Source: Candidatus Omnitrophota bacterium (GTDB taxonomy: Bacteria > Omnitrophota > Gorgyraeia > Duberdicusellales > 4484-171). Taken from it: a stretch of 64,000 nucleotides of DNA. The DNA is taken from assembly GCA_043823745.1 (NCBI GenBank), contig JBDRAN010000003.1:2958-66957 (forward strand), read 5' to 3'. Of this stretch, positions 16,658 to 41,594 are shown in pieces. A model generated the notes under the pieces. That model was not told the origin of the DNA. It saw only the letters and a program-made list of their open reading frames with translations, and ran no database searches. Numbering within the stretch: the first letter of the stretch is position 1; every line of letters starts with the position of its first letter. Position numbers and translations under genes: made by a program.

Positions 16658-16719
16658 CTGAAATTTGCCTTAAAATTACAGGCAAATTTCAGCCCCACAG
16701 GGCGTCCCTGGGGGACAGC
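16658..16719 (+). repeat. 13-bp perfect hairpin (ctgaaatttgcct...aggcaaatttcag) followed by a diverged copy of the 26-nt repeat unit (cagccccacagggcgtccctgggggacagc)
   Basis: The 29-nt segment matches the tandem-array unit at 28992-29101 with about 4 mismatches. Confidence 0.55.
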
Positions 16720-16825
16720 GTCGACCCCTGTTCAAGCTACGGGTGGGGCAGAAAATGCCCCCATCTTCATCGAAGTTCTCGGTGCATTTTCTGGGTAAAA
16801 AGATTTTACTTAAAAAAATAAAATT

Positions 16826-24182: not shown

Positions 24183-24213
24183 CGGTTTAACTAAGAGGAG
24201 GAGAGAGGTGAGT

Positions 24214-26277: not shown

Positions 26278-26286
26278 GAGAGGACA

Positions 26287-26886: not shown

Positions 26887-26901
26887 TTATGGGAGGTCGC
26901 A

Positions 26902-27327: not shown

Positions 27328-27901
27328 TCTGCATGCCTGTATTCTTATCTCGCTTACCGTGCATACCGGACTCGTCGGATCCGGCGTTTTCCATTTTAAT
27401 CCTGTTAAACAAGAAAAGCCTTTTGAGGTCGCATTTGAAGTCGAAGAAGAAATATTGCCTGAGCAATATGAGGTTAAAGAAGAAAAAAAAATAGAAAGTC
27501 CGGTTCTTGAAAAGGAAGAGGTTATTGAGCCGGTACCGGAGGAATCAATAGCCGAACAACCTCCGGAACCTAAAGAAAGCGATGATGAGCTTAAAAAATC
27601 CCTTCTTAGATATCAAGACAGCATCAAGCAGAAAATCCAACAGGAGAGGCAGTATCCTCGATGGGCGCTTCGCGTAGGGCAACAAGGGGATGCGCGGATA
27701 ACTTTTTCTGTTTTATCCTCCGGCCAGATGAAGAATTTGAAACTACTTAAATCATCCGGTTTTGAGGAGCTTGATAAAGAAGCATTGGATGCTGTTAAGC
27801 GCGCTAACCCGTTTTTGTCATTTCCTGAAGCATTTAAGGATGATATAATAACTATTGAGTTGGACATTGTTTTTCATATTACAAACAAATCGACTGATTA
27901 G
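27311..27901 (+). CDS. tonB: TonB energy transducer
   Basis: N-terminal TM, Glu/Pro/Lys-rich linker and a TonB C-terminal domain. Confidence 0.8.
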   Translation: MKKINDLHACILISLTVHTGLVGSGVFHFNPVKQEKPFEVAFEVEEEILPEQYEVKEEKKIESPVLEKEEVIEPVPEESIAEQPPEPKESDDELKKSLLRYQDSIKQKIQQERQYPRWALRVGQQGDARITFSVLSSGQMKNLKLLKSSGFEELDKEALDAVKRANPFLSFPEAFKDDIITIELDIVFHITNKSTD

Positions 27902-28137
27902 CTTACGCTATCTTTTAGAATAGGTTTTTAACTATATATAAAAACCTTGCCCTTCATTCATTTTCTTATATAATCGAACATTAAGGAACGCAGCCGAACT
28001 AGGCTGCGTACTTACTTAGTGTAGTGAAAACGTCAGTGGTTTTGGTCAAAATAGTCCAATTTCCTACAAAATACTACAAAATGAGCAAACGCGAAATCAT
28101 AGTAAAAACCTAACAAAATCAATATAAATTACCGTTT

Positions 28138-28210
28138 GCCCCTATAGCTCAAAAGGATAGAGCGCGGCCCTCCTAAGGCTGAAATCCCTGTTCGATTCAG
28201 GGTGGGGGCA
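28138..28210 (+). tRNA. tRNA-Arg (anticodon CCU)
   Basis: The cloverleaf folds by hand: acceptor GCCCCTA/TGGGGGC, D-arm GCTC..GAGC, anticodon loop CTCCTAA, T-arm CCCTG-TTCGATT-CAGGG. No encoded CCA. Confidence 0.85.
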
Positions 28211-28370
28211 GTTTGATTTTGCCCCTGCAAAATCAAACAGAGCAATTGAGCAATCGAAAATAGAACAATAGAAAAAATAAAAGCTCCATTGCGACCGAGG
28301 ACGTAATGTCCGAGGGAGTGCCGAGGCCTCCGGACGAAGCCGGTCTAATGTTCAATTGTTCGATTGTTCA
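28211..28370. repeat. Structured repeat element copy B (hairpin gtttgattttgc-ccct-gcaaaatcaaac + conserved 27-mer), immediately 3' of tRNA-Arg
   Basis: See copy A at 606-725. The hairpin stem shows compensatory substitutions. Confidence 0.6.
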
Positions 28371-28488: not shown

Positions 28489-28517
28489 TTGACAAGAAAA
28501 TTTGCCTGGGATATAAT
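28489..28517 (+). promoter_or_regulatory. Consensus sigma-70 promoter TTGACA-N17-TATAAT
   Basis: ttgacaagaaaatttgcctgggatataat. It drives the riboswitch leader. Confidence 0.75.
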
Positions 28518-28559
28518 CCAGTTGCTCTTTAAAATTTAGAAGCAAACGTTTGCGGTGCT

Positions 28560-28720
28560 TGTAAACCTCGGCAGAGAACGCAGTTCTTTGACGGGTAAAG
28601 CTTAATAGGGAACTCCGTGAAAATCGGAGACACTCCCGGTGCTGTAAAGGAGGACGAACGGCGCAATGATGCCACTATCTCGTGTTACACGGATGGAAAG
28701 GCGCGCCTAGTAGAATGAAT
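28560..28720 (+). promoter_or_regulatory. Cobalamin (AdoCbl) riboswitch #1
   Basis: Conserved core GGGAAC..CGTGAAAATC..CCCGGTGCTGTAAAGG..GCCACT matches the B12 element consensus (B12 box GCCACT at 28671-28676). Confidence 0.8.
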
Positions 28721-28823
28721 CCTATAGTCAGAAGACCTGCCGCAAAAAAAGTAATCTATTTTTAGGTTTTACGCGGAAATAATAACCTAAATTTTTACTT
28801 TCGGGATAAGAAACCAGGGTGCA

Positions 28824-28854
28824 CCCCGACGCAAATGACGCGTCGGGGTTTTTT
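28824..28854 (+). terminator. Rho-independent terminator, probably the riboswitch expression platform
   Basis: ccccgacgc-aaatgac-gcgtcgggg + TTTTTT. Confidence 0.75.
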
Positions 28855-28855
28855 A

Positions 28856-29130
28856 ATGAGACAGCAGCTTTTTCAGAGCGAAGCGATAGAAAAACTGCGT
28901 AGTCGAATTAACCCCGTCGAACGCGCCAAAATTATCTTGCGTACAACGTACGCGTGAAAATTTTGGCGTACGCGGTGAGACGGGGTGATGAGACAGCCCC
29001 TCTGGGCGTCCCTGGAGGACAGCCCCTCTGGGCGTCCCTGGAGGACAGCCCCTCTGGGCGTCCCTGGAGGACAGCCCCTCTGGGCGTCCCTGGAGGACAG
29101 CAGCGTTTTCAGAGCGACGCGATAGAAAAT
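28856..29130 (+). repeat. Compound repeat: 4.x tandem copies of a 26-nt unit (gacagcccctctgggcgtccctggag, 28992-29101) nested between approximately 35-nt direct repeats (gagacagcagcNttttcagagcgaMgcgatagaaaa at 28856-28894 and 29095-29130)
   Basis: Period 26 nt, so non-coding. The track ORF 28954..29166 is repeat-generated. Confidence 0.85.
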
Positions 29131-29186
29131 TACCCTAAGGAAAGTTTAACCCAAATTTTTCATTAGAAAAATTTGCCCGACGGGCA

Positions 29187-29403
29187 GCCCTTTCAAAAGA
29201 AAGGGCTGGGTTAACCCCGCCCCAATTTTATTGAGCGGCGGAGCATTAAGGGAAAACATTGATTCTATTGATTAAGTTTATGTTTAAACAATAACCCCTT
29301 ATTTATAAAATCGGGGCGGCCATCCTTAATATTCATATTAAGGTAGGCAAAACCACAGCCCTTTTCCGAAGGGCTGGGTCCAGCCCATTTACAAATGGGC
29401 TGT
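29187..29403 (+). repeat. Three hairpins sharing the stem cagccc/gggctg (29187-29210, 29355-29375, 29381-29402) plus the perfect palindrome ccttaatattcatattaagg (29316-29335)
   Basis: Each hairpin was checked by reverse complementarity. Confidence 0.6.
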
Positions 29404-29552
29404 GATTTACCTGCACCTTTTTGGTGCGAACTTATTTGTTGCAATAACAACAGTGTACGCAAGTTACAAAGCTTCTGCATTTCTAATGCAAATTTTGGGT
29501 TTAAGGTTATTTGATAGGCGCCATAAAAACATTTAAAGGGGGGGTGATTGGG

Positions 29553-29669
29553 ATGGAGAAGAAACCGCGCAAGATAAAGAAAAACGTTATTGCCTGTCGT
29601 AAAAAGTGTAAAGCGACCGGCGCAGGCTTATCGCATTATGTACTCTTGGAGAAGGAGAATAAATCTTAA
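29553..29669 (+). CDS. Small ORF, 38 aa (MEKKPRKIKKNVIACRKKCKATGAGLSHYVLLEKENKS): candidate precursor/leader peptide
   Basis: Strong RBS AAAGGGGGGG sits 8 nt upstream. The stop overlaps the ATG of the downstream rSAM gene (TAATG). Not in the ORF track, which omits ORFs under 60 aa. Confidence 0.45.
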   Translation: MEKKPRKIKKNVIACRKKCKATGAGLSHYVLLEKENKS

Positions 29670-31069
29670 TGTTGCAAAAAATAATAGGTATGAAAACTCA
29701 AACCTATTTCAATACGGGCGAAGGGGATAGCATCCAACCCATAGACATCGGCCACAGAGATTATACTTGTTTAGTTTCCGCCGATACGGCATTCTGGGCG
29801 CTGGTTAGAAAAGATAGATTGGCCAGCGCCCAGGCCGGCTCGTCGCTCTTAAGCGAATATCGTAAAAAAGCGAAGACCTTCTTGGGCGGAATGAACACGT
29901 TGCGGTTTAAATTAAAACCTTCAGCCGTATATTTTAATCCTACCGACAGATGCAACCTCGATTGTTGTTATTGTTATATTCCCGCAGACTTACGTAAAAA
30001 TGGTACGCATATGTCCGCCCTAAAGCTTTCGAAAGCGCTCGGGATTCTTAAGAATTATTTTAAGCCCAGTCTTTCACGGGGCCAGAAACCTCAGATCATT
30101 TTTCATGGGGCTGAACCACTACTTAATAAACAAGCTGTTTTTACCGCAATAGACAGATATGAGAAAGATTTTCGTTTTGGCATTCAGACGAACGGAACAC
30201 TTTTGGACGGTAACGCGCTGGAATTCTTGACTTCACGAGGCATAAGCATAGGCCTTTCTCTTGATGGTCACATACATAGCGTAGCCGATCGATTGAGACG
30301 GAACTGGAATGGTGAAGGCGTTTCCCGAAAAGTCATTGAGGTGATGAGCCGGCTTAAAGGGTATCGTAATTATTCCGTTATCTGCACCGTAACACGAAAA
30401 AATATGTCCTCACAGGCCAAGATAGTCGAGTTTTTTCATCGCATGGAAGTACCAATGTGCATGCTCAATCCCGTTCGTTGCACGCTCCCCGGCGGCTATA
30501 AGCAAAAGCCATCAGACGAAAAAGCCGCGACGCATTATCTGAAAGCCTTGGATCACGCCTACAATCTCTACCAGAAGTCCAACCGTAAACTGGTGGTGGC
30601 AAACTTCGCGAATGTTCTGATAAGTATTCTCGCGCCCACAGCCAGGCGGCTTATGTGTGATATCTCCCCATGTGGGGCGGGAAGATGTTTCTTCGCAATT
30701 TCGAGCAAGGGTAACATGTTCCCCTGCAGCGAATTTATAGGAATAAAGAAGTTTAGAGGCGGCAATATTTTTAGGGATGATATCCGTGCAGTCTTAAAGA
30801 CGGCGCCGTTCAAATCTGTTACCGAAAGACGCATTGAAGATATTACTCCCTGTTCGCGCTGCGCTATCCGTCATTTTTGCGGTGCGCCATGTCCCGCTGA
30901 AGCTTGGACTATAAACGGCTCAATGGTTTCAAGAGGCGCGTTCTGCAGGTTCTACGAAGAACAGGTACGATACGCGTTTAGAGTAATCGCCGATAATAAA
31001 GAAGGCGCGTACTTATGGGATGAGTGGGATAAGGATACGCTTACGACATTCGATATTACAAGAAAATAA
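29669..31069 (+). CDS. Radical SAM enzyme with C-terminal SPASM/twitch domain and an approximately 95-aa N-terminal extension
   Basis: CNLDCCYC (CX3CX2C) at residues 97-104. C-terminal Cys-rich CDISPCGAGRCF...CSEF...CSRCAIRHFCGAPC. RBS AAGGAG. Confidence 0.8.
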   Translation: MLQKIIGMKTQTYFNTGEGDSIQPIDIGHRDYTCLVSADTAFWALVRKDRLASAQAGSSLLSEYRKKAKTFLGGMNTLRFKLKPSAVYFNPTDRCNLDCCYCYIPADLRKNGTHMSALKLSKALGILKNYFKPSLSRGQKPQIIFHGAEPLLNKQAVFTAIDRYEKDFRFGIQTNGTLLDGNALEFLTSRGISIGLSLDGHIHSVADRLRRNWNGEGVSRKVIEVMSRLKGYRNYSVICTVTRKNMSSQAKIVEFFHRMEVPMCMLNPVRCTLPGGYKQKPSDEKAATHYLKALDHAYNLYQKSNRKLVVANFANVLISILAPTARRLMCDISPCGAGRCFFAISSKGNMFPCSEFIGIKKFRGGNIFRDDIRAVLKTAPFKSVTERRIEDITPCSRCAIRHFCGAPCPAEAWTINGSMVSRGAFCRFYEEQVRYAFRVIADNKEGAYLWDEWDKDTLTTFDITRK

Positions 31070-31089: not shown

Positions 31090-31731
31090 ATGACAAGATT
31101 AATTTTGATACGTCATGGCGTAACCGAATGGAATAGAGAGAAACGTTACTGCGGCCATAAAGATATAGGTTTAAATAACGAAGGTAAGTCTCAGGTTACG
31201 TTGTTATCTCACAGGCTTAATGCGGTCGGATTCGATAAAGTATATTGCAGCAATAGGAAACGTGCGATACAGACCGCGCGAATACTCTTTAAGCAGATAA
31301 AAATAATCCCGGATCGAGGTTTACGCGAAATCAATTTCGGTGTTCTTGAAGGATTAAAGCATGAAGAAATTATGGAAAAGTACGCAGATATATACAAGAA
31401 GTGGCTAAAGGATCCATTCAAAAACAGAATTCCTAAGGCAGAACCGATGAATGTTTTTAAAAAGAGAATCGAAAACGCCCTGTGGAATATCATCCGAGCT
31501 AATTCCGACAAGACGATTGCCGTTGTTTGCCATGGCGGAGTGATAGGCATGTTTGTGAACGAGATATTGAAGAATAGGAATTTCTGGCGCTACGTGCCAT
31601 CGCCGGCAAGCGTTACGGTAATAGAACATAAGGAAGGAAAGTCTAAATTAAAAAAGTTCAATGACACAACCCATCTTATGGCTTGCCCCGTTAGAAAGAC
31701 GGGGTTTTCTAACGGGGTAAATAATGAGTAA
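31090..31731 (+). CDS. cobC: Alpha-ribazole phosphatase (histidine phosphatase family)
   Basis: RHG catalytic motif (LIRHGVTEWN), 213 aa, in a cob context. Confidence 0.75.
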   Translation: MTRLILIRHGVTEWNREKRYCGHKDIGLNNEGKSQVTLLSHRLNAVGFDKVYCSNRKRAIQTARILFKQIKIIPDRGLREINFGVLEGLKHEEIMEKYADIYKKWLKDPFKNRIPKAEPMNVFKKRIENALWNIIRANSDKTIAVVCHGGVIGMFVNEILKNRNFWRYVPSPASVTVIEHKEGKSKLKKFNDTTHLMACPVRKTGFSNGVNNE

Positions 31732-32245
31732 AATGACTTTCATTTTAGGGGGCGCACGGAGCGGTAAGAGTCGATATGCCGCTGAAATAGCGAAAAAGCT
31801 TGGAAAGAAGACGATATTCATCGCTACAGCGGCTGCGCTGGATGATGAGATGAAAGAAAGGATACGCCTTCATAAAATTTCGAGGCCGAAGGGATGGGGC
31901 CTTATTGAGGAACCCATGGATTTAAGCGGTGTTATTGTCGGATTGAAGCCGACATACGATGTGGCAATAATCGACTGCATAGGATTGTGGGTCTGCAATC
32001 TTTTAATGGCCGACATGAAAGACGACGCGATAGAGAAAAGAATAAAGAAGCTGACAGGCAGCATTTTCAAAGCTAAAGCCGGTCTTGTCGTTATAGTATC
32101 AAATGAAGTGGGGGGAGGAATAGTTCCCGCGGATCCGCTATCGAGAAGATTCCGCGATCTGCTTGGGTTAGCGAATCAAATGATAGCGGCGAAAGCAGAA
32201 AGCGTTATTGTGATGCAGGCGGGAATACCGGTGAAAATAAAATAG
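31724..32245 (+). CDS. cobU: Bifunctional adenosylcobinamide kinase / adenosylcobinamide-phosphate guanylyltransferase
   Basis: P-loop GGARSGKS. About 170 aa, matching the CobU/CobP family. Confidence 0.85.
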   Translation: MSKMTFILGGARSGKSRYAAEIAKKLGKKTIFIATAAALDDEMKERIRLHKISRPKGWGLIEEPMDLSGVIVGLKPTYDVAIIDCIGLWVCNLLMADMKDDAIEKRIKKLTGSIFKAKAGLVVIVSNEVGGGIVPADPLSRRFRDLLGLANQMIAAKAESVIVMQAGIPVKIK

Positions 32246-32390
32246 ATAACACCCGGCCTTATCGCACCTTGGCATAAATGATTGCCAAGTACGCCCTTTC
32301 TGGGCAGGATAGGCCGGTAACGCAGAAAGCGGACACTCGCCCATCCAATTGGGCGAGGTGTGCGCACTTACTGTGCAAGGAGCTAAAATC

Positions 32391-33449
32391 ATGAAATTAT
32401 TGAACGAAACGCTTTCAAAAATTGAAAAAATAAACAATTCACTATCCAAAGAAACTCAAGGTAGGCTCGACAATCTGACCAAACCACAGGGAAGCCTCGG
32501 GAGGCTGGAGGATCTGGCCAAACAGATCGTGGAGATAACAGAAGCTAAAAATCCGAAACTAAAAAATAAGGTTATATTTATAATGGCCGGAGATCATGGT
32601 GTCGTTGAAAATAATGTGAGCGCTTTTCCCCAAGAAGTAACCTCTCAGATGGTATATAATTTTTTAAATGGCGGAGCGGGAATAAATGTGCTGGCAAAAC
32701 ACGTGGGCGCACGAGTCGTTGTCGTTGATATGGGGGTAGTATGCGAGCTTAAGAACAACCAGGCTCTTGTAATAAAAAAGGTAAATTATGGCACAAAAAA
32801 TATGGCAAAGGGCCCTGCGATGTCAAAAGACGAGGCTATCAAATCCATTGAAAATGGCATAGAAGCATTCAAGGGAGAACTGCCGAACGGAATAGATATA
32901 GTTGGGACAGGGGATATGGGTATCGGAAACACTACTCCTTCAAGCGCTGTTGTCTCTGCGATAACCGGACGGAACGTAGAAGAGGTGACGGGCAGGGGCA
33001 CCGGGATCGATGACAAAACCTTGGCCTGCAAAATTGCCGCCATCAAAGAAGCTTTGAACGTAAATAAGCCGGATCCAAAAGACGGAATAGATATCTTGTC
33101 TAAAGTGGGTGGATTCGAGATCGGTGGATTAATAGGAGTAATGCTGGCAGCCGCGGCGCATAGGATACCGGTGGTAATAGACGGATTTATTTCAGGGGCG
33201 GCTGCCTTGATAGCGTATACAATAGAGCCGAAAGCCAAAGATTACATGATAGCTGCCCATTGCTCGGTCGAGCAAGGCCATAAAGCCGCGCTCGCATTCT
33301 TAGGGCTTAAACCCGTCCTTGATTTAAACTTAAGGCTGGGAGAGGGAACCGGAGCGGCATTGGCTATAAACATAATAGAGGCCGGCACTAAAATATTAAA
33401 TGAGATGGCGACGTTTGAAAGCGCCGATGTTTCCAAAAAGGACGAATGA
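32391..33449 (+). CDS. cobT: Nicotinate-nucleotide--dimethylbenzimidazole phosphoribosyltransferase
   Basis: CobT motifs GDMGIGNTT and E...GEGTGA. RBS GGAG precedes ATG 32391. Confidence 0.85.
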   Translation: MKLLNETLSKIEKINNSLSKETQGRLDNLTKPQGSLGRLEDLAKQIVEITEAKNPKLKNKVIFIMAGDHGVVENNVSAFPQEVTSQMVYNFLNGGAGINVLAKHVGARVVVVDMGVVCELKNNQALVIKKVNYGTKNMAKGPAMSKDEAIKSIENGIEAFKGELPNGIDIVGTGDMGIGNTTPSSAVVSAITGRNVEEVTGRGTGIDDKTLACKIAAIKEALNVNKPDPKDGIDILSKVGGFEIGGLIGVMLAAAAHRIPVVIDGFISGAAALIAYTIEPKAKDYMIAAHCSVEQGHKAALAFLGLKPVLDLNLRLGEGTGAALAINIIEAGTKILNEMATFESADVSKKDE

Positions 33450-34189
33450 AAAGATTTCTAATCGCTTTACAGTTTTTAACCATCCTTCCTTTTAGTATTA
33501 AGGGAAAAATAGAAAAGGAAGATTTTGGCAGATCTCTTGTCTATTTTCCAATAGTCGGTCTTTTATTAGGTTTTTTTCTGGCGAGCATAGCTTATATTTC
33601 ATTATCTCTTCCGCCTATGGTTAGAAGCATCTTAATTCTGGTTGTATGGATGGTCATAACCGGCGGAATACATTTAGACGGGTTTGCGGATACCTGCGAC
33701 GGTTTTTACGGAATTCGCCCCAGGGAAGAGATTTTAAAAATAATGCGGGACAGCCGCATCGGAACTATGGGCGCTGCAGGCCTTGCGATGCTCCTACTCT
33801 TTAAATTCGCGATACTCTCGAGCATCCGGCCGGAAGATTTATGGAAGATTTTGGTAATAACGGTAGTATTCGCCCGATGGTCCCAGGTATTTGCCTGCTC
33901 TATGTCCGGATACGCGCGAGATGACGGCAAAGCCAAATATTTTATAGAATATGCGAAGAAGAGTCATATGTTCATAGGAGCTTTATTTATACTACTTCTC
34001 AATGGGTTTCTTATGGGTATAAAAGGCATGATCTTATTCGTTATCTTGTCAGCGGTGATATTTTTATTCATAAAATATGCGGAAAGAAAAATTGGCGGCA
34101 TGACAGGAGATACGATCGGCGCGACGAACGAAATTGCTGAGGCATCGGCGCTAATATTTAGCTTAATATTATTAAATTATAAAATATGA
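33446..34189 (+). CDS. cobS: Adenosylcobinamide-GDP ribazoletransferase (cobalamin synthase)
   Basis: Polytopic membrane protein with CobS motifs LTILP and DGFADT. Confidence 0.85.
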   Translation: MKRFLIALQFLTILPFSIKGKIEKEDFGRSLVYFPIVGLLLGFFLASIAYISLSLPPMVRSILILVVWMVITGGIHLDGFADTCDGFYGIRPREEILKIMRDSRIGTMGAAGLAMLLLFKFAILSSIRPEDLWKILVITVVFARWSQVFACSMSGYARDDGKAKYFIEYAKKSHMFIGALFILLLNGFLMGIKGMILFVILSAVIFLFIKYAERKIGGMTGDTIGATNEIAEASALIFSLILLNYKI

Positions 34190-35241
34190 TCGATAAAATT
34201 CATGGCGGAAATTGTTTAAAGCGAAACATCATTGATTTCAGCGTGAACACAAATCCATTGGGTTTACCGAAAGGATTATCCGGTATTATTTCAAAGAATA
34301 CCGATTGTGTCTTGCGTTATCCGGAACCTTCTTCAGAACGATTAAAGCGAAAATTGGCGGCATTGCATGCCGTAGGGCCGGAAAACATCGCCATAGGTAA
34401 CGGTTCCATAGAACTCATCTATCTTGTCCCCAGAGTTTTAAAAATAAAAAATGCGCTTATAATCACGCCAACATTCAGCGAATATGAATTCGCCGTCAAA
34501 TCTAACGGCTCGACGCCTGTATTTTTCAATGTTTGCGAAAAAGACGATTTTAATATTGAGTGCGGCAAGATAGCAAAACGCCTGCCGCGCCGCGGCGCCT
34601 TCTTCTTGTGCAACCCGAATAATCCGACAGGCACCATGCTGCATAGTAATGATGTCCTATTTTTGTCTCGCCTTTCCAGAAAACACAAAAGCCCTTTGAT
34701 ACTCGATGAGGCGTTCATTGAATTCACCGGAGAATCAAAAAGAACAACCATAGTGTCAGAGGCGATTAAAAACGAATTTTTAATTATTTTAAGATCGCTG
34801 ACTAAATTCTTCGCCATGCCGGGCTTAAGGCTGGGGTACGCCATAGGGCATAAAAGGATAATCGAGAAAATCGTTAAACTTCAATATCCATGGAATGTGA
34901 ATGGCCTGGCACAACGTGCGGGGGAAAAGGTCTTGGCTGATAAAGAGTATATTGATCAAACCCGACTGTTTGTCGCCAAAGAACGGCACTATCTGCTCGA
35001 AAGTTTAAATAATATAAAAGGAGTAAAGGCTTATCCATCATTAGCAAACTTCATTTTATGTAAGTTGCACAATGCATCAATCCAAAGCTCCAAAGAATTA
35101 ACCCGGCGATTGTTGTGCAACAACATCTATGTCCGCGACTGTAGCAATTTTAGGGGATTGAGTAATAAGTTTTTCAGGGTAGCGGTAAGAAAAAGAGATG
35201 ATAACGATCTGCTGGTAAATAGTATGAAAAAGGTACTTTGA
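34186..35241 (+). CDS. cobD: L-threonine-O-3-phosphate decarboxylase (class I/II aminotransferase fold)
   Basis: N-terminal IHGGN motif and a PLP-lysine region, in a cob context. Confidence 0.75.
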   Translation: MIDKIHGGNCLKRNIIDFSVNTNPLGLPKGLSGIISKNTDCVLRYPEPSSERLKRKLAALHAVGPENIAIGNGSIELIYLVPRVLKIKNALIITPTFSEYEFAVKSNGSTPVFFNVCEKDDFNIECGKIAKRLPRRGAFFLCNPNNPTGTMLHSNDVLFLSRLSRKHKSPLILDEAFIEFTGESKRTTIVSEAIKNEFLIILRSLTKFFAMPGLRLGYAIGHKRIIEKIVKLQYPWNVNGLAQRAGEKVLADKEYIDQTRLFVAKERHYLLESLNNIKGVKAYPSLANFILCKLHNASIQSSKELTRRLLCNNIYVRDCSNFRGLSNKFFRVAVRKRDDNDLLVNSMKKVL

Positions 35242-36767
35242 TGAACCACGCGAAAACACTGCATATCTGCGGGACAGGTTCAGGCGTAGGTAAGAGCGTT
35301 ATTGTGAGCGCTTTGTGCAGGATCCTTTTACAGGATGGCTACAGAGTTTGTCCGTTCAAAGCGCAGAATATGGCCCTCAATTCTTTTGTGACCAAGGAAG
35401 GCGGTGAGATAGGCAGAGCTCAAGCCTTTCAGGCCGAAGCTTGCCGTATTGAGCCACATGTTGACATGAATCCTATATTGATGAAACCTACCGCTGATAA
35501 GCATGCACAAGTGATAGTTCATGGGAAACCCGTAGGAAATATGAGCGCGCTTCGCTATGTGAGTCATAAGAAACGGTTATCTAAAGAGGTGTTTAACTCA
35601 TTCGACAGGCTTAGTAAAAAATATGAATTGATAGTAATGGAGGGCGCCGGAAGTCCTGCCGAGATAAACTTAAAGTCTCACGATATTGTTAATCTCAAAA
35701 TGGCGCGCTACGCCGCCGCGCCTGTGATTTTAGTTGGTGATATTGATAAAGGCGGTGTTTTCGCGTGGCTTGTCGGAACACTTGAGCTACTGGAAAGAGA
35801 AGAACGAAAACAGATAAAAGGGTTTATAATCAATAAATTTAGGGGAGACGCAAAGCTTTTAAAACCCGGAATAGATTTTTTGGAAAAAAGAACGGGCATA
35901 AAAGTCCTTGGAATCATTCCGTACTTTCATCCATCAGGTCGAAATAGCATAAAGATTTCAGAGGAGGATTCAGTACCTCTGGATAATTTTGAAAGTGTAG
36001 ATAGGCCCGCTCGGTGCAAACTTAATATTGATGTAATATATCTTCCGCATATATCTAATTTTACCGATTTTGACGCATTGGAGAGGGAGCCGGATGTAAA
36101 TCTACGGTATATAAAAAGCCCTGAGTCATTAAACAGGGCGGATATTATTATAATTCCTGGTACGAAGAATACGACAAGTGACCTGCGGTATCTAAAGGAA
36201 GCGGGATTCGCAGAAAAGATAAGTAGTGTTATGGGGAATGATAAAACCGCCGTCTTAATAGGAATATGCGGTGGATTTCAGATACTGGGCACAAGGATAC
36301 GTGATCAACACCGAATCGAATCCCGTCAAAAAGAAACAAACGGACTGGGAATATTGGAGATGGAAACGGTCTTCGGCAAAGATAAAGTTCTTTCGCAGGT
36401 TAAAGCAAAAGAAGCATCTTCAGGGTTAGAGGTATCAGGCTATGAGATACACCACGGTAAATCACGAAATATCAGAACTTATATGCCGGCTTTCAACATT
36501 ATAGAACGCAAAGGAAAAGTTGCCCGCGACGCTGATGGTATAGTTGCAATGACTGGCAGGATATATGGAACCTACATACATGGAATATTTGACGCGGATA
36601 CTTTCAGAAGAAATTTTTTAAACAGAATAAGATTAAAAAAAGGATGGAATGTTTTGTCTAATAAGGCCAGCTTTAATCCCGACCGTGAGCTGGATAAGTT
36701 AGCCAACCTTGTTCGGAAGAATATGGACATGAAATATCTCTATAGCGTATTAAAAAACGGAGTCTAG
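35238..36767 (+). CDS. cobQ: Cobyric acid synthase
   Basis: CobQ/CbiP N-terminal ATPase domain (GTGSGVGKS) plus a C-terminal glutamine amidotransferase domain (GICGGFQ). Confidence 0.9.
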   Translation: MMNHAKTLHICGTGSGVGKSVIVSALCRILLQDGYRVCPFKAQNMALNSFVTKEGGEIGRAQAFQAEACRIEPHVDMNPILMKPTADKHAQVIVHGKPVGNMSALRYVSHKKRLSKEVFNSFDRLSKKYELIVMEGAGSPAEINLKSHDIVNLKMARYAAAPVILVGDIDKGGVFAWLVGTLELLEREERKQIKGFIINKFRGDAKLLKPGIDFLEKRTGIKVLGIIPYFHPSGRNSIKISEEDSVPLDNFESVDRPARCKLNIDVIYLPHISNFTDFDALEREPDVNLRYIKSPESLNRADIIIIPGTKNTTSDLRYLKEAGFAEKISSVMGNDKTAVLIGICGGFQILGTRIRDQHRIESRQKETNGLGILEMETVFGKDKVLSQVKAKEASSGLEVSGYEIHHGKSRNIRTYMPAFNIIERKGKVARDADGIVAMTGRIYGTYIHGIFDADTFRRNFLNRIRLKKGWNVLSNKASFNPDRELDKLANLVRKNMDMKYLYSVLKNGV

Positions 36768-36768: not shown

Positions 36769-37719
36769 ATGCGGATCGTTTATATTCTCGTGTCATATCT
36801 ATTAGACCTCGTATTCGGAGATCCGCCCTCATTTCCGCATCCGGTAAGGGGAATCGGCTGGGTTATCAAGAAATTAGAAGGGCCGTTCAGATATATTGTT
36901 AAAAATGAACGCATAGCCGGCGTTTTTTTCGCCTGTACGATAATAATCTTGATATGGCTCATAACTTTTACGGTAACGCAGACGGCATATTTTTTTAATA
37001 ATTATCTTGGCGCTATTATTTCGATAATCATTATTTATACTTCATTATCGGTAAAGGACCTAGGCATAGAAAGTCTGGCAGTCTTTAGTGCGTTAAAAGA
37101 CGGAAATCTGAATAAAGCGAGGACAGCTCTTTCTAAAATAGTGGGAAGGGATACGTCAAATCTGGACGAATGGGAAATAATAAGGGCTACAGTAGAGACT
37201 GTCGCCGAAAATATCGTTGATGGCATAATCTCGCCTCTATTGTATGCCTTTTTGGGCGGCGCTTCCCTCGCTATGGCATATAAAGCTATTAATACGTTGG
37301 ACTCTATGGTCGGTTATAAAAATAAGCGGTATATAAATTTTGGATGGGCGTCTGCGAAGATCGATGATATTGCTAATTTTATTCCGGCTAGGCTAGGAGT
37401 AATATTTTTGTGTCTGGCAAGTTGGATAAGCGGCCATAATCCCATCAAGGCATGGAATATTGCAATACGTGATGGAGCGAAGAATCCCAGCCCTAATAGC
37501 GGTCTTCCTGAAGCAGCTATTGCCGGCGCCCTTGGAGTTCGATTGGGGGGATTGAATTATTATAATTCGACAGCGGTTCAGAAATCATATATAGGAGATG
37601 ATATTAATTCTTTAGATAAATCACATATAAAAGAAGCCGTCAAGATTGTTTACATCACATCTGGTCTATTTGTAATTACAGGAGCGGTTTTATTCTGGTT
37701 GATATGTAAACCCCGTTAG
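36769..37719 (+). CDS. cbiB: Adenosylcobinamide-phosphate synthase
   Basis: CbiB/CobD membrane-protein motifs (HPVRGIG...). Confidence 0.85.
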   Translation: MRIVYILVSYLLDLVFGDPPSFPHPVRGIGWVIKKLEGPFRYIVKNERIAGVFFACTIIILIWLITFTVTQTAYFFNNYLGAIISIIIIYTSLSVKDLGIESLAVFSALKDGNLNKARTALSKIVGRDTSNLDEWEIIRATVETVAENIVDGIISPLLYAFLGGASLAMAYKAINTLDSMVGYKNKRYINFGWASAKIDDIANFIPARLGVIFLCLASWISGHNPIKAWNIAIRDGAKNPSPNSGLPEAAIAGALGVRLGGLNYYNSTAVQKSYIGDDINSLDKSHIKEAVKIVYITSGLFVITGAVLFWLICKPR

Positions 37720-37756: not shown

Positions 37757-38404
37757 ATGAAAGTAATTTCTTTGTGGAGCGGCGGCAAAGATAGTTGTTT
37801 TGCCTGTTATAAGGCAAAATTGCAGGGGTATCAAATAACCTCGGTCATTAATTTTACGAGCTCTGATGGAATCAATTCCGTATCACATGGTTTATCAGCC
37901 GATATTATACAAAGACAGGCAGACCTAATTGATATCCCTCTCTTACAAAAAGCTATGCCTCAAAAAGGCTACAGGAATGCATTTAAAGTATTATTTGAAG
38001 AACTTAAAGCAAAAGAAGGTGTAGAGGGAATTGTTTTCGGGGATATTTATTTACAGGAGCACAGGGATTGGATAGATAAAGTATGTGATGAATTAAAGGT
38101 AGAGGCGATTTTGCCGATATGGACAAAAGACACTGAGAGATTAGTTAAAGAAATTATCGATTCAGGATTTAAGTCAATTATAGTTTCGGCGAATAAAGAT
38201 ATTCTTGGAGAACAATGGTTAGGCCGTGAAATTAATAGCAGGTTTCTAAAAGACCTAAAGGCTATAGGAAATATAGATCTCTGCGGAGAAAAAGGCGAAT
38301 TCCATACATTTGTCTATGACGGCCCACTATTTAAGGAAAAGGTCAAATTTAATAAAGGCAATAAGACGTTGCGGGATAATCGATGGTTTTTGGAGGTTCT
38401 TTAA
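37757..38404 (+). CDS. PP-loop N-type ATP pyrophosphatase, Dph6/MJ0570 family
   Basis: SGGKDS PP-loop at residues 8-13 and the family motif GEFHTFV. Confidence 0.65.
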   Translation: MKVISLWSGGKDSCFACYKAKLQGYQITSVINFTSSDGINSVSHGLSADIIQRQADLIDIPLLQKAMPQKGYRNAFKVLFEELKAKEGVEGIVFGDIYLQEHRDWIDKVCDELKVEAILPIWTKDTERLVKEIIDSGFKSIIVSANKDILGEQWLGREINSRFLKDLKAIGNIDLCGEKGEFHTFVYDGPLFKEKVKFNKGNKTLRDNRWFLEVL

Positions 38405-39267
38405 TGAGAAAATCTGGTCTTCTTGTGCCGATCTTTTTTGCCGCATTCACGTTCCAGACCATATTCGTCGATGGTGCGTACGCTTCAGAAAACCATCCAA
38501 AAAAAATAATCTCTTTGGCACCATCCATAACCGAGGGGTTATATTTGCTGGGAGCGGAGAATATCCTTGTCGGCAATACGACTTACTGTGTGACTCCGCC
38601 TGCGGCGCGATACAAGGAAAAGGTCGGATCTATAACCAAGGTAGATTTAGAAAAGATCGTCGGATTAAAACCCGATTTGGTGTTGGCTACATCTCTTACA
38701 AATCCTAAAACGATTCAAAAGCTTAGAAGCTTAGGCATAGAAGTAAAATTATTTCCAGCGCCAAAAAATTTCACGTCTCTGTGTGATGAGTTTTTGGAAT
38801 TGGGCAAGGCGGTAGGCAGAGAGCCGGAGGCAAAGGAGATTGTCAAAGTGGCAGAGGGAAAGGTCGCTGAGATAAAGTCCAGGACTGCTACGCTTATGAA
38901 GCCGAAAGTTTTTATCGAAATTGGAACGAAACCTCTTTTTACCGCGAACAAGGACTATATCATCAATGATTTCGTGAAGCTGACCGGTGGAAAAAACATT
39001 GCCGAAGACTCGAAGATCGGCGTTTACAGCAAAGAAGAAGTTTTAAGAAATAATGTCGATGTAATACTCATCGTGACGATGGGTTTTGTGGGTGAGACGG
39101 AAAAAGAAGCGTGGCAGAAGTTTAAAATGTTGAATGCCGTAAAACACGATAGGATCTATATTATCGATTCGCAAAAGATATGCGGACCCACACCCGTGAC
39201 TTTTGCCAAAACCCTGGAAGAGATAAGTTTCCTCCTTCATCCGGAGCTATTGAAGAAGAAAAGATGA
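38404..39267 (+). CDS. btuF: Periplasmic corrinoid-binding protein of ABC transporter (BtuF/TroA-like)
   Basis: Signal peptide and a cluster-A SBP fold, in a btuCD context. Confidence 0.75.
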   Translation: MRKSGLLVPIFFAAFTFQTIFVDGAYASENHPKKIISLAPSITEGLYLLGAENILVGNTTYCVTPPAARYKEKVGSITKVDLEKIVGLKPDLVLATSLTNPKTIQKLRSLGIEVKLFPAPKNFTSLCDEFLELGKAVGREPEAKEIVKVAEGKVAEIKSRTATLMKPKVFIEIGTKPLFTANKDYIINDFVKLTGGKNIAEDSKIGVYSKEEVLRNNVDVILIVTMGFVGETEKEAWQKFKMLNAVKHDRIYIIDSQKICGPTPVTFAKTLEEISFLLHPELLKKKR

Positions 39268-40274
39268 ATAAGAGAACAATACGCTGGACAACACAGATAC
39301 TAATATTGGGAGGAGCGCTTTTTCTTATAGCGGCGCTGTCATTATGTCTGGGTTCTGCCGCTTTATCGGTTCAGACAGTCATCCGTTCTATTTTTAGTGG
39401 TTACAATACTACAGAATCTAATATTCTTTTTGAAATCCGCCTGCCGCGTATCATTTTGGGGTTTGCCATTGGCGGCGCGTTAAGCCTGGCTGGTGTTATT
39501 CTGCAAGGGCTTTTCCGAAATCCATTGGTAGAACCATATACAATGGGTATTTCCGGGGGAGCGGCTTTGGGAGTTAGCTTGGCCATTATCTTAAAATTAT
39601 ATCAGTCGATGGGTCTAGCGACATTACCGTTTGCCGGTTTTTTGGGAGCGGCTCTCGTTATTATGCTGATATACGCTATAAACATCAGAAAAAAGACGTT
39701 AAAGATACAGGGCCTGCTTCTGACTGGTGTTATGATAAGTTTCATATCATCGTCTTTTATAATGCTTATTATGGCTATTTCGCGTACTGAGGATCTTCAC
39801 GGCATTGTCTTTTGGATAATGGGTTCCCTGGAAGAACCAAGCTGGTTTCTTATAAAATTAATGCTCTTTACGTCTTTAGCGGGATTAGCCGTGTCGTATA
39901 TCTTCTGGAAGGACCTAAACGCGTTACGTTTGGGAGAAGAGGAAGCCGTGCATCTGGGAATCAATACGGAAAGAGCAAAAAGAGCGCTTTTTGTGCTGGC
40001 ATCGCTCCTTACCGGATGTGCTGTTTCTGTTGGCGGAATTATCGGTTTTGTCGGTTTGATTATTCCGCATCTTATGCGTATGTTTATAGGTTCTGATCAT
40101 AGGGCCCTTCTGGTGGGCTCATTTTTAGGCGGAGCGGGTTTTCTCATCTTCTGCGATACTTTGGCTAGGATAATTGTCACGCCTTCCGAGTTGCCCGTAG
40201 GTGTAATTACCGGCATATTAGGAGGAAGTTTCTTTATTTACGCTTTAACTAAGAGGGGAAAATCGATTGCTTGA
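39264..40274 (+). CDS. btuC: ABC permease, FecCD/BtuC family
   Basis: Nine to ten TM helices and FecCD-family motifs. Confidence 0.85.
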   Translation: MNKRTIRWTTQILILGGALFLIAALSLCLGSAALSVQTVIRSIFSGYNTTESNILFEIRLPRIILGFAIGGALSLAGVILQGLFRNPLVEPYTMGISGGAALGVSLAIILKLYQSMGLATLPFAGFLGAALVIMLIYAINIRKKTLKIQGLLLTGVMISFISSSFIMLIMAISRTEDLHGIVFWIMGSLEEPSWFLIKLMLFTSLAGLAVSYIFWKDLNALRLGEEEAVHLGINTERAKRALFVLASLLTGCAVSVGGIIGFVGLIIPHLMRMFIGSDHRALLVGSFLGGAGFLIFCDTLARIIVTPSELPVGVITGILGGSFFIYALTKRGKSIA

Positions 40275-41070
40275 AATAAAGGATTTGACGTGCGGTTACG
40301 ATAAGAGATTTCATCTTAGAGGGATAAATCTCGTGATTGAAGAAGGCGGTTTCTTCGGAATAATAGGGCCGAATGGATCCGGTAAAACAACGCTTTTGCG
40401 GGCTATAACGCGTGTCCTTGAGCCGGAAAGCGGAGAAGTGTTTCTTAGGGGAAAAAACATAAGGCAGATAGATTTTAGGGAGCTGGCGAGAACGATAGCG
40501 GTTGTTTCTCAGAACGTCTCTACTGATGAGCTCAACGTAAGGGAGTTCGTTCTTCTTTCGAGAATACCTCATTATAAAGGCCTTCAGTTTCTAGAGACAA
40601 AACACGATGAAGAGATCGCAGACAGGGCGATGGCCCTAACAGACACGCTTAAATTTAAAGATAGGTTGATGTCACAGATAAGCGGAGGCGAAAGGCAGCT
40701 TGTCCTTATCGCGCGCGCTTTGGCGCAAGAGCCGAAATTCCTTCTTCTGGATGAACCCACATCGCATCTTGACATAACGCATCAGGTTCGCATTCTCGAT
40801 CTCTTAAAAAAATTAAATAAAGAATTATCCCTTACCGTGATAATAGTTTTGCATGATTTGAATCTTGCCAGTGAATATTGTGACAGGATAGCGCTTCTAT
40901 CTGGTGGTGCCGTTTATAAAGAAGGTCTGCCGCAAGATGTCTTGGATTACAAGACTATCGAAAATGTTTATAAGACCGTAGTCGTTGTGGAGAAGAATCC
41001 GGTTTCCTCAAAGCCTTATGTCCTTCTCGTTTCTGAAGAAGAGAGAGAAAAACGAAGAAAAAAACAATGA
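40267..41070 (+). CDS. btuD: ABC ATPase, BtuD/FecE family
   Basis: Walker A GPNGSGKTT, ABC signature LSGGERQ and Walker B LLLDEP. TTG start. Confidence 0.85.
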   Translation: MLEIKDLTCGYDKRFHLRGINLVIEEGGFFGIIGPNGSGKTTLLRAITRVLEPESGEVFLRGKNIRQIDFRELARTIAVVSQNVSTDELNVREFVLLSRIPHYKGLQFLETKHDEEIADRAMALTDTLKFKDRLMSQISGGERQLVLIARALAQEPKFLLLDEPTSHLDITHQVRILDLLKKLNKELSLTVIIVLHDLNLASEYCDRIALLSGGAVYKEGLPQDVLDYKTIENVYKTVVVVEKNPVSSKPYVLLVSEEEREKRRKKQ

Positions 41071-41594
41071 GGCAGGGATTAATCCAGATTTATACGGGCG
41101 ATGGGAAAGGAAAGACTACTGCAGCGGTCGGCCTTGCCGTGCGGGCACGAGGACACAATTTTAAGGTTGGGTATATTTTCTTTTTTAAGGATCCTAAAAA
41201 GTTTGGGTACGCTGAAATCAGGCTTTTAAAGAAGCTGGGAGTAAAGGTCTTTGGTTTTTCTCATAAGCATCCGCATTTTTACAAGAATCTCGGCTCAAAC
41301 AGCGTACGCCGCGAATGCCTAAAGGGAATGAACTTCATCAAAAAGATATGCCACGCGGGAAGCTACGATCTTCTTATCCTTGACGAGATACTTATTGCTC
41401 TGCGCGACGGATTCCTGAGCGAAAATGAAATACTTGAGATCATGACGTTAAAGCCTCCCGACATGGAGTTGGTTATGACCGGCAGAGGCGCTACAGGCAA
41501 CATCATTAAGAAAGCGGATTTGGTGAGCGTCATTGAGAAAAAAAAGCATTATCTTGATAAAGGAGTAACAAAGAGGAAAGGTATTGAGTTTTAA
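41067..41594 (+). CDS. cobO: Cob(I)yrinic acid a,c-diamide adenosyltransferase
   Basis: IQIYTGDGKGKTTAAVG signature of CobA/CobO/BtuR. Confidence 0.85.
   Translation: MRQGLIQIYTGDGKGKTTAAVGLAVRARGHNFKVGYIFFFKDPKKFGYAEIRLLKKLGVKVFGFSHKHPHFYKNLGSNSVRRECLKGMNFIKKICHAGSYDLLILDEILIALRDGFLSENEILEIMTLKPPDMELVMTGRGATGNIIKKADLVSVIEKKKHYLDKGVTKRKGIEF

What the first reader, a model, noticed from the sequence alone, without database searches (positions are those of the whole stretch)
29553..31069. Translationally coupled 38-aa peptide gene + RRE-like/rSAM/SPASM enzyme as the first genes of a riboswitch-led corrinoid operon
- The small ORF (MEKKPRKIKKNVIACRKKCKATGAGLSHYVLLEKENKS) has a strong SD sequence.
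- Its stop overlaps the ATG of a radical SAM enzyme. That enzyme carries a roughly 95-residue N-terminal extension before CX3CX2C and a C-terminal SPASM/twitch Cys cluster.
- This is the canonical architecture of peptide-modifying (RiPP) maturases.
- It sits 20 nt upstream of cobC-cobU-cobT-cobS and appears to share their transcript.
- It is therefore either (a) a novel RiPP-like system co-regulated by B12, or (b) an AhbD/NirJ-like SPASM enzyme acting on a corrinoid/tetrapyrrole, with the small ORF as a regulatory leader.
- I do not recognise either arrangement as a described cobamide-pathway component.
Basis: partly seen in the sequence, partly recalled or inferred. Interest (0 to 1): 0.8.

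Follow-up and report, generated by a model that had tools for sequence, protein, structure and literature searches.

The report
B12-regulated CbpA peptide and CbpB maturase
The small gene and the radical SAM enzyme gene are real and linked to vitamin B12 genes, but they belong to a curated and named family (CbpA peptide, CbpB maturase) whose chemistry and role nobody appears to have worked out.

Summary
A 38-aa ORF (29553-29669) with a strong ribosome-binding site ends in TAATG, which starts a 466-aa radical SAM/SPASM protein (29669-31069). That gene ends 20 nt before cobC-cobU-cobT-cobS-cobD-cobQ-cbiB-btuFCD-cobA.

It is not new. NCBIfam scores the enzyme 667.6 bits on TIGR04163 (CbpB, cutoff 375) and the peptide 41.1 bits on TIGR04164 (CbpA, cutoff 35). 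These exact sequences are already in GenBank under those names, from a Candidatus Omnitrophota MAG.

Comparison with about 85 related loci shows:
- CbpA is present in 79 of 81 loci, conserved over about 25 residues, and evolves as coding sequence.
- Only one Cys is conserved.
- 41 of 66 loci have a cobalamin riboswitch within 400 nt upstream of cbpA, including stand-alone pairs such as the one in cultured Fundidesulfovibrio putealis.
- Most of the rest sit inside cob/btu operons.

In this window the riboswitch lies about 800 nt upstream, separated from cbpA by a repeat-rich insertion. An RRE fold for the N-terminal domain could not be shown. The AhbD/anSME reading is rejected.

The product and its function are unknown, and I found no paper on the family. 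My best guess is an intracellular cross-linked peptide used when B12 is scarce.

The parts
28489..28517 (+). sigma-70-type promoter-like site, TTGACA-17-TATAAT (12 of 12)
   Evidence: it lies 19 nt upstream of the riboswitch aptamer
28536..28758 (+). cobalamin riboswitch aptamer (RF00174)
   Evidence: 92.2 bits (gathering score 31.5), E 2.6e-22, full model 1-189
28823..28855 (+). intrinsic-terminator-like hairpin (10 pairs, 8 of them G-C) plus a U-run; presumed expression platform of the riboswitch
   Evidence: the hairpin is in both the MFE and the centroid fold
28856..29505 (.). non-coding spacer of about 650 nt, absent from the closest relatives; holds a 26-nt x4.2 perfect tandem array (28992-29101), 34-nt direct repeats (28860-28893 and 29096-29129) and GC-rich hairpins
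   Evidence: no Rfam family; no Pfam hit for its ORFs
29540..29548 (+). Shine-Dalgarno-like GGGGGTGAT for cbpA
   Evidence: read; L001 has AAGGAGGTG at the same place
29553..29669 (+). cbpA, 38-aa modified-peptide precursor (TIGR04164)
   Evidence: 41.1 bits, cutoff 35; GenBank MFH1875392.1, named CbpA; conservation; coding periodicity
29669..31069 (+). cbpB, radical SAM/SPASM peptide-modifying enzyme (TIGR04163); alternative start at 29690 (Met8)
   Evidence: 667.6 bits, cutoff 375
29669..29950 (+). conserved N-terminal domain of CbpB (residues 1-94), predicted as three strands then helices; presumed peptide-binding, RRE fold not shown
   Evidence: pLDDT 70-83 over residues 13-75 of the domain model; no significant fold or Pfam match
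29951..29974 (+). CX3CX2C radical SAM cluster motif (C95, C99, C102)
   Evidence: invariant
30656..30946 (+). SPASM region with nine invariant Cys (330-426), enough for two auxiliary [4Fe-4S] clusters
   Evidence: aligns with the SPASM domains of CteB 5WGG and anSME 4K36
31090..31731 (+). cobC-like histidine phosphatase (probable alpha-ribazole phosphatase)
   Evidence: TIGR03162 at 146.9 bits, just under the cutoff of 162.9
31724..32245 (+). cobU
32349..33449 (+). cobT
33446..34189 (+). cobS
34186..35241 (+). cobD (threonine-phosphate decarboxylase)
   Evidence: TIGR01140 at 302.7 bits, cutoff 290.55
35238..36767 (+). cobQ (cobyric acid synthase)
36769..37719 (+). cbiB
37757..38404 (+). Dph6-like PP-loop ATP pyrophosphatase (PF01902); direct neighbour of cbpAB in eight related loci
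38383..41070 (+). btuF-btuC-btuD-like corrinoid ABC importer
41067..41594 (+). cobA-type corrinoid adenosyltransferase
41825..43831 (+). TonB-dependent receptor (BtuB-like)

Best explanation
This is an ordinary member of the curated CbpA/CbpB pair: a short ribosomal peptide and its radical SAM/SPASM maturase.

Proposed mechanism.
1. CbpA is translated. This is inferred from codon-position conservation.
2. CbpB binds CbpA, probably through its conserved 90-residue N-terminal domain. This is inferred.
3. CbpB cleaves SAM at the CX3CX2C cluster and uses two SPASM auxiliary clusters to install an intramolecular cross-link in the near-invariant segment R-K-x-C-K-A-x-G-T-G-L-S-H-Y-(I/V)-L-(M/L)-D-K.
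4. My preferred chemistry is a thioether from the single invariant Cys, about 0.35. A carbon-carbon or carbon-nitrogen link involving the invariant His and the neighbouring aromatic residue is the alternative.
5. No protease, exporter or third gene travels with the pair. The product therefore probably stays in the cell uncleaved, as is assumed for SCIFF.

Regulation and role. Expression is switched off by cobalamin through a riboswitch, and the pair is often embedded in cobamide salvage and nucleotide-loop operons. The modified peptide therefore most likely acts in corrinoid acquisition or late assembly when B12 is scarce, about 0.5. One possibility is a small corrinoid- or cobalt-handling factor that uses the invariant His.

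What is shown and what is inferred.
- Shown: family membership, conservation of the peptide, and the link to the riboswitch and to cob genes.
- Inferred: that CbpA is the substrate, the chemistry, and the cellular role.
For: Membership.
- TIGR04163 scores 667.6 bits (cutoff 375) and TIGR04164 scores 41.1 bits (cutoff 35).
- The identical sequences are named CbpB and CbpA in GenBank.
- Homologues named CbpB occur in Omnitrophota, Elusimicrobiota, Nitrospirota, Armatimonadota, Chloroflexota and other groups at 62-88% identity.

Peptide.
- A CbpA-like ORF lies upstream of cbpB in 79 of 81 loci that have upstream DNA.
- The database holds 670 peptide clusters, with an almost invariant 25-residue core and one Cys in 102 of 120 peptides.
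- Entropy is 1.48 bits at the third codon position against 0.60 and 0.40 at positions 1 and 2.

Enzyme kind.
- The next-best NCBIfam models are all peptide maturases or anSME: PapB 142.7, DynA 124.1, anSME 112, HxsB 110.5, SCIFF maturase 108.1 bits.
- The best solved relative is the SCIFF thioether synthase CteB (5WGG, E 3e-34). The alignment starts at CbpB residue 86 and CteB residue 99, so the two N-terminal domains are of similar size.

B12 link.
- The riboswitch is in the window.
- Rfam finds a riboswitch directly upstream of cbpA in 18 of 20 loci tested, in L001 and L004, and in the stand-alone pair of cultured F. putealis, 76 nt upstream.
- An nhmmer profile finds one within 400 nt in 41 of 66 loci.
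- 27 of 43 loci of at least 8 kb carry cob/btu genes.
- Only 4 of the 66 loci show neither link.

Self-contained module. No gene family recurs in more than 2 of 21 stand-alone loci within 4 kb on either side.
Against: - No experiment or paper on this family was found in seven full-text searches. The substrate, chemistry and role are therefore all inference.
- The full-length AlphaFold model was poor, with pLDDT 57.6.
- In this window the riboswitch is 795 nt away, beyond its own terminator and a repeat-rich insertion. A weak promoter-like site lies inside the spacer at 29283-29311. B12 control of this particular copy is therefore unproven.
- Stand-alone riboswitch-controlled pairs would fit a B12-sparing function equally well.
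- The Ser-to-Ala and Tyr-to-Phe variants argue against chemistry that needs those side-chain hydroxyls.
Confidence: 0.65

Rival explanations
1. B12-sparing function. CbpAB is not part of cobamide metabolism. It is a B12-independent substitute for some B12-dependent process, and cobalamin represses it for the same reason it represses metE or nrdDG.
For: Many pairs stand alone with their own riboswitch and no cob genes within 8 kb. Examples are L037, L060, L074, L078, L086, L088, L094, L097-L099 and F. putealis L103. By established knowledge, cobalamin riboswitches commonly control B12-independent isozymes.
Against: In many lineages the pair sits inside cob/btu operons between biosynthetic genes, for example cbiB-cobD-cbpAB-btuFCD or cbpAB-cobC-U-T-S. 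That placement is unusual for isozyme genes. No known B12-dependent reaction is replaced by a 35-aa peptide.
Confidence: 0.18
2. Peptide-derived small molecule. CbpA is sacrificed, like PqqA or MftA, to make a cofactor or cobamide building block from its conserved G-L-S-H-Y residues, such as a ligand or linker precursor.
For: The peptide is extremely conserved across phyla, which is typical of cofactor precursors rather than antibiotics. It is linked to nucleotide-loop genes. The operon shows no lower-ligand synthesis gene and no threonine kinase.
Against: No peptidase or further tailoring enzyme travels with the pair, whereas the PQQ and mycofactocin systems need several. The Tyr-to-Phe and Ser-to-Ala variants exist. 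Conservation extends over 25 residues, not only a short core.
Confidence: 0.1
3. First reader's option (b). The enzyme is an AhbD/NirJ- or anSME-like SPASM enzyme that acts on a corrinoid or tetrapyrrole, or on a protein, and the small ORF is only a regulatory leader.
For: SPASM enzymes of the AhbD/NirJ type do act on tetrapyrroles (established knowledge). The gene lies in a corrinoid operon.
Against: AhbD scores 59.2 against a cutoff of 500, and anSME 112 against 349. The ORF is conserved at the amino-acid level with third-position variation. It is retained even where it lies 60-370 nt from cbpB and far from any riboswitch. A leader peptide for attenuation would not keep a 25-residue invariant sequence across more than eight phyla.
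Confidence: 0.04
4. Secreted natural product. CbpA is matured into an exported peptide, for example an antimicrobial or a scavenger of corrinoid or cobalt.
For: The architecture is RiPP-like. The operon also encodes TonB-dependent and ABC uptake systems that could re-import a loaded scavenger.
Against: There is no exporter, leader peptidase or immunity gene with the pair. No double-glycine or other leader-cleavage motif was seen. The core is invariant rather than diversifying.
Confidence: 0.06

Closest known systems
NCBIfam/TIGRFAMs TIGR04163 (rSAM_cobopep, 'peptide-modifying radical SAM enzyme CbpB') with TIGR04164 (cobo_pep, 'modified peptide precursor CbpA')
   Same: Both proteins pass the curated equivalog cutoffs. 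They are adjacent and co-oriented, and they lie next to cobalamin genes. The identical sequences already carry these names in GenBank.
   Different: Nothing differs at the family level. Specific to this copy are a stop/start overlap, which is possible in only 23 of 79 loci, and a 650-nt repeat-rich insertion between riboswitch and cbpA.
SCIFF peptide with its maturase (TIGR03974; CteB, PDB 5WGG/5WHY)
   Same: It is a widely conserved two-gene module: a short, highly conserved peptide plus a radical SAM/SPASM enzyme with an N-terminal extension. It has no dedicated protease or exporter and its physiological role is unknown. CteB is the best solved-structure match (E 3e-34).
   Different: SCIFF has six Cys and CbpA has one conserved Cys. 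The SCIFF model scores only 108 bits against a cutoff of 425. SCIFF is not known to me to be B12-regulated (my own knowledge). CteB's RRE is established, CbpB's is not.
PapB ranthipeptide maturase (NF047865) and DynA dynobactin maturase (NF041298)
   Same: These are the next-best NCBIfam models, at 142.7 and 124.1 bits. PapB makes Cys-to-Asp/Glu thioethers, and CbpA has an invariant Cys and a conserved Asp. DynA links His to a Tyr beta-carbon, and CbpA has an invariant His next to Tyr. The chemistry of PapB and DynA is from my own knowledge.
   Different: Both score far below their cutoffs of 340 and 450. The substrates are unrelated in sequence. Those systems make secreted natural products.
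PqqA/PqqE(/PqqD) and MftA/MftC cofactor systems
   Same: A conserved short peptide is modified by a radical SAM/SPASM enzyme for a housekeeping rather than an antibiotic purpose.
   Different: Those systems need an RRE protein plus peptidases and further enzymes in the cluster. CbpAB travels alone. No PqqD match was found.
anSME and AhbD/NirJ SPASM enzymes
   Same: They share the radical SAM plus SPASM fold.
   Different: They score below the cutoffs, at 112 of 349 and 59 of 500. They have no N-terminal domain and no partner peptide.

Membership tests
CbpB (TIGR04163, rSAM_cobopep) | Full-length match to the equivalog HMM at or above the curated cutoff of 375 bits | tested here: met
   667.6 bits, E 6.6e-201, residues 23-449 on model positions 2-428 of 428
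CbpA (TIGR04164, cobo_pep) | Match to the 25-position peptide HMM at or above 35 bits | tested here: met
   41.1 bits, residues 12-35 on model positions 1-24 of 25
CbpA/CbpB pair | Peptide gene immediately upstream of the maturase gene on the same strand | tested here: met
   Window; 79 of 81 related loci
CbpA/CbpB pair | Association with cobalamin genes or regulation. That the 'cobo' in the model names stands for this is my reading of the names. | tested here: met
   cobC-U-T-S-D-Q follow 20 nt downstream. The riboswitch is upstream. 62 of 66 related loci are linked by riboswitch or cob/btu genes.
Radical SAM superfamily | CX3CX2C motif and Radical_SAM domain | tested here: met
   C95, C99 and C102 are invariant. 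PF04055 scores 53.3 bits.
SPASM subgroup (two auxiliary clusters) | C-terminal seven- or eight-Cys SPASM motif | tested here: met
   PF13186 scores 27.3 bits (cutoff 21.5). Nine Cys at 330-426 are invariant. The region aligns to the SPASM domains of CteB and anSME. Cluster content itself cannot be tested here.
RRE-dependent RiPP maturase | PqqD-like RiPP recognition element (three strands plus three helices) that binds the leader | tested here: inconclusive
Sactipeptide/ranthipeptide synthase | Formation of a Cys thioether to a backbone or side-chain carbon | not testable with these tools
   The only support is similarity to PapB and CteB and one invariant Cys.
Anaerobic sulfatase maturase | Equivalog HMM TIGR03942 at or above 349 bits | tested here: not met
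   112 bits
AhbD heme b synthase / NirJ-like | Equivalog HMM TIGR04545 at or above 500 bits | tested here: not met
   59.2 bits
Cobalamin-riboswitch-controlled operon | RF00174 aptamer with an expression platform directly upstream of the first gene | tested here: inconclusive
   The aptamer scores 92.2 bits and a terminator is present. It lies 795 nt from cbpA, with no gene but a 650-nt insertion in between. Relatives have a gap of about 100 nt. Transcription was not tested.

The most novel reading that the evidence does not exclude
The CbpB-modified CbpA peptide is an unrecognised, widely distributed component of anaerobic cobamide salvage or late assembly. It could be a His-bearing cross-linked mini-chaperone for incomplete corrinoids or cobalt, or a peptide-derived precursor, perhaps working with the Dph6-like PP-loop ATPase that neighbours it in some lineages. 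That would add a ribosomal peptide to the B12 pathway.
Probability: 0.35. Interest if true: 0.7.

Novelty: already known. Interest (0 to 1): 0.35.

Why it matters
The locus itself is a rediscovery. The family has curated models and names, and this exact gene pair is already annotated in GenBank.

The open part is the biology. This is a 30-40-aa peptide with an almost invariant 25-residue core. It is kept next to a very conserved radical SAM/SPASM enzyme in at least eight bacterial phyla and is placed under cobalamin riboswitch control even when it stands alone. I found no published chemistry or function for it.

If the product acts in corrinoid handling, it would be a new type of player in B12 metabolism of anaerobes and of uncultured groups such as Omnitrophota. 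The system is small, with two genes. It also occurs in a cultured sulfate reducer, so it can be tested directly.

Tried and rejected
- Literature: seven full-text searches found nothing relevant. Terms included TIGR04163/4, cobopep, CbpB with radical SAM and cobalamin, SPASM with riboswitch, and GLSHY.
- AlphaFold on the full-length protein with a 15-sequence alignment gave a poor model, pLDDT 57.6. I did not use it for fold search.
- Pfam at E up to 10 on the N-terminal 100 residues found no PqqD.
- A regex heuristic for the B12 box plus GCCACTG was too strict and missed the window's own riboswitch. I replaced it with an nhmmer profile built from Rfam-verified hits and cross-checked that with Rfam.
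- The genome-contig scan with the single protein returned only 4 true orthologous loci. The metagenome scan with an alignment gave 80.
- A search for a conserved third gene around stand-alone pairs found none.
- The AhbD/anSME reading was rejected on HMM scores.
- The leader-peptide-only reading was rejected on coding periodicity.
- I compared the glycyl-radical 'spare part' motif and the DxHxxG B12-binding motif by eye with CbpA and with the CbpB N-terminus. Neither fits.
Full report
**1. The observation**

- An ATG ORF at 29553-29669 encodes MEKKPRKIKKNVIACRKKCKATGAGLSHYVLLEKENKS.
- It is preceded by GGGGGTGAT at 29540-29548, an 8-of-9 match to the Shine-Dalgarno consensus.
- Its TAA stop overlaps an ATG (TAATG) that opens a 466-aa ORF at 29669-31069.
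- That protein has C95-X3-C99-X2-C102 after 94 N-terminal residues. Pfam finds Radical_SAM (53.3 bits) and SPASM (27.3 bits).
- Nine C-terminal Cys are invariant among 15 homologues.
- Twenty nucleotides after its stop, a co-directional, tightly packed series begins: cobC-like, cobU, cobT, cobS, cobD, cobQ, cbiB, a Dph6-like PP-loop ATPase, btuF, btuC, btuD, cobA and a TonB-dependent receptor.
- These are genes for nucleotide-loop assembly, late amidation and salvage or uptake, not for corrin-ring synthesis.
- A cobalamin riboswitch (RF00174, 92.2 bits) lies at 28536-28758 on the same strand. A perfect TTGACA-17-TATAAT promoter-like site precedes it. A strong terminator-like hairpin with a U-run follows it at 28823-28855.

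**2. Corrections to the observation**

*Distance to the riboswitch.* The aptamer ends 795 nt before cbpA.
- In the closest relatives (L001, L023, L026, L027) the gap is 107-144 nt. The usual value across loci is about 100 nt.
- The extra 650 nt or so (28856-29505) is non-coding. It contains a perfect 26-nt x4.2 tandem array, a pair of 34-nt direct repeats and several GC-rich hairpins.
- It matches no Rfam family, and its ORFs match no Pfam family.
- No gene and no strong plus-strand terminator intervene. Read-through from the riboswitch is therefore plausible, but it is inferred.

*Start of the enzyme.* Starts at 29669, 29672 and 29690 are all possible.
- The closest relatives can only start at the equivalent of Met8, and the TIGR04163 model begins at residue 23.
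- An overlapping start is possible in 23 of 79 loci. Other loci have gaps of 1-24 nt or 60-370 nt.
- Close linkage is therefore conserved, but the overlap is not.

*Cysteines.* Only the second Cys of the peptide is conserved. 102 of 120 peptides have a single Cys.

**3. What it is**

- NCBIfam places the enzyme in TIGR04163, 'peptide-modifying radical SAM enzyme CbpB', at 667.6 bits against a cutoff of 375.
- It places the peptide in TIGR04164, 'modified peptide precursor CbpA', at 41.1 bits against a cutoff of 35.
- An exact-sequence look-up shows that both proteins of this window are already in GenBank. They are MFH1875393.1 and MFH1875392.1, from a Candidatus Omnitrophota MAG contig of 134,862 nt, and they carry exactly those names.
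- Homologues at 62-88% identity carry the same name in Omnitrophota, Elusimicrobiota, Nitrospirota, Armatimonadota, Chloroflexota and others.
- Peptides named CbpA also occur in Planctomycetota, Desulfovibrionaceae, Syntrophales, Nitrospinota and Actinobacteria. There are 670 clusters in total.
- The finding is therefore a correct rediscovery of a curated family.

**4. Comparative evidence**

I collected 4 orthologous loci from genomes, 80 from metagenomes and the locus of cultured Fundidesulfovibrio putealis.

*The peptide.*
- A CbpA-like ORF lies upstream of cbpB in 79 of the 81 loci that have upstream DNA.
- The two exceptions are identical in sequence and look frameshifted.
- The consensus is K-D-V-I-A-x-R-K-x-C-K-A-x-G-T-G-L-S-H-Y-(I/V)-L-(M/L)-D-K-K.
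- Arg, Cys, Gly-x-Gly-Leu and His are essentially invariant. Rare variants have Ser-to-Ala or Tyr-to-Phe.
- Over 79 distinct nucleotide versions, entropy at codon positions 1, 2 and 3 is 0.60, 0.40 and 1.48 bits. That is the signature of a translated gene under purifying selection, not of a regulatory leader.

*The riboswitch.*
- Rfam finds a cobalamin riboswitch directly upstream of cbpA in 18 of 20 loci tested and in L001 and L004.
- In F. putealis the pair stands alone among unrelated genes, and the riboswitch lies 76 nt upstream.
- A profile built from these hits finds one within 400 nt in 41 of 66 loci.
- In eight loci two riboswitches sit back to back. One faces cbpAB and the other faces a divergent cobC-U-T-S-D-Q-cbiB-cobA operon.
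- Where no riboswitch is seen, cbpAB usually lies in mid-operon behind cob or btu genes.

*Overall link to B12.*
- Of 43 loci of at least 8 kb, 27 carry cob/btu genes.
- Only 4 of the 66 loci show neither kind of link.

*No third partner.* No other gene family recurs around stand-alone pairs.

**5. Mechanism**

- The nearest models after CbpB are PapB (ranthipeptide thioether), DynA (dynobactin), anSME, HxsB, the SCIFF maturase and cyclophane-forming enzymes. All score far below their cutoffs.
- The best solved relative is the SCIFF thioether synthase CteB (5WGG, E 3e-34). The alignment starts at CbpB residue 86 and CteB residue 99, so the N-terminal domains are of similar size.
- I therefore propose that CbpB binds CbpA through its N-terminal domain and installs an intramolecular cross-link in the invariant core.
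- I favour a thioether from the single Cys, at about 0.35. A link involving the invariant His and the adjacent aromatic residue is the main alternative.
- The Tyr-to-Phe and Ser-to-Ala variants argue against chemistry that needs those hydroxyls.
- There is no peptidase or exporter, so the product probably acts inside the cell.
- B12 represses it and it is embedded in salvage and late-assembly operons. A role in corrinoid or cobalt handling under B12 scarcity is therefore the best guess, at about 0.5.
- A B12-sparing function is the main rival.

**6. The RRE claim**

- The N-terminal domain is strongly conserved.
- A domain-only AlphaFold model shows three strands followed by helices, with pLDDT 70-83 over residues 13-75. 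That is compatible with an RRE.
- Pfam PqqD does not match even at E up to 10.
- Foldseek gives nothing at E below 0.6.
- The claim is neither confirmed nor refuted.

**7. Rejected reading**

An AhbD/NirJ-like or anSME-like enzyme with a regulatory leader ORF is not supported. AhbD scores 59 bits against a cutoff of 500 and anSME 112 against 349. The ORF evolves as coding sequence.

**8. Novelty and interest**

- The family and this very locus are already named, so the finding is 'already known'.
- Seven full-text searches found no paper on CbpA or CbpB, or on a SPASM enzyme under a B12 riboswitch. The library is incomplete, so this is absence of evidence only.
- The open and testable question is what a B12-repressed, almost invariant modified peptide does in anaerobes from many phyla.
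- I score interest at 0.35. It is ordinary as a discovery, but it points to a two-gene system that appears to be unstudied.

Noticed in passing
window 28856-29505 (and 16688-16739): A non-coding insertion of about 650 nt lies between the riboswitch terminator and cbpA and is absent from the closest relatives. It has a perfect 26-nt x4.2 tandem array (28992-29101), 34-nt direct repeats at 28860-28893 and 29096-29129, and GC-rich hairpins at 29174-29218 and 29356-29405. A diverged copy of the 26-nt unit lies at 16688-16739. Its origin is unknown (REP-like or minisatellite), and so is its effect on riboswitch control.
   Followed up: partly
window 37757-38404; L028, L029, L031, L032, L033, L047, L072, L079: A Dph6-like PP-loop ATP pyrophosphatase (PF01902 Diphthami_syn_2, 174.5 bits) sits inside the cob/btu operon. 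In eight related loci it is the direct neighbour of cbpAB. Diphthamide synthesis modifies a histidine, and CbpA has an invariant His. No role for this family in B12 metabolism is known to me.
   Followed up: partly
L050, L061, L066, L067, L071, L085, L096, L097: Two cobalamin riboswitches lie back to back on opposite strands. One leads cbpAB and the other leads a divergent cobC-cobU-cobT-cobS-cobD-cobQ-cbiB-cobA operon.
   Followed up: yes
L034 about 1500-1620 and L035 about 7880-8000: The cbpA reading frame looks disrupted by frameshifts, while cbpB is intact at 64% identity. The two metagenome contigs are identical here. This could be a pseudogene or a sequencing error.
   Followed up: no
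window 610-659 and 28215-28265: A repeat of about 50-60 nt (39 nt of it at 97% identity) consists of a short hairpin followed by CAAACAGAGCAATTGAGCAATCGAAAATAG. One copy lies directly after tRNA-Arg(CCT) at 28137-28211. The other lies 27.6 kb upstream with no tRNA beside it.
   Followed up: partly
window 24151-27901: A TonB-dependent receptor followed by exbB-exbD-tonB lies just upstream of the tRNA and riboswitch. A second TonB-dependent receptor (41825-43831) closes the cob/btu operon. The region therefore looks like a corrinoid-uptake island.
   Followed up: no
window 31090-31731: The cobC-like histidine phosphatase scores 146.9 bits on TIGR03162, just below its cutoff of 162.9. Its assignment as alpha-ribazole phosphatase therefore rests on context.
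   Followed up: no
L099 6334-6379 (-) and 6489-6534 (+): Two Acido-Lenti-1 RNA matches (48 and 40.9 bits) lie just downstream of cbpB in one metagenomic locus.
   Followed up: no
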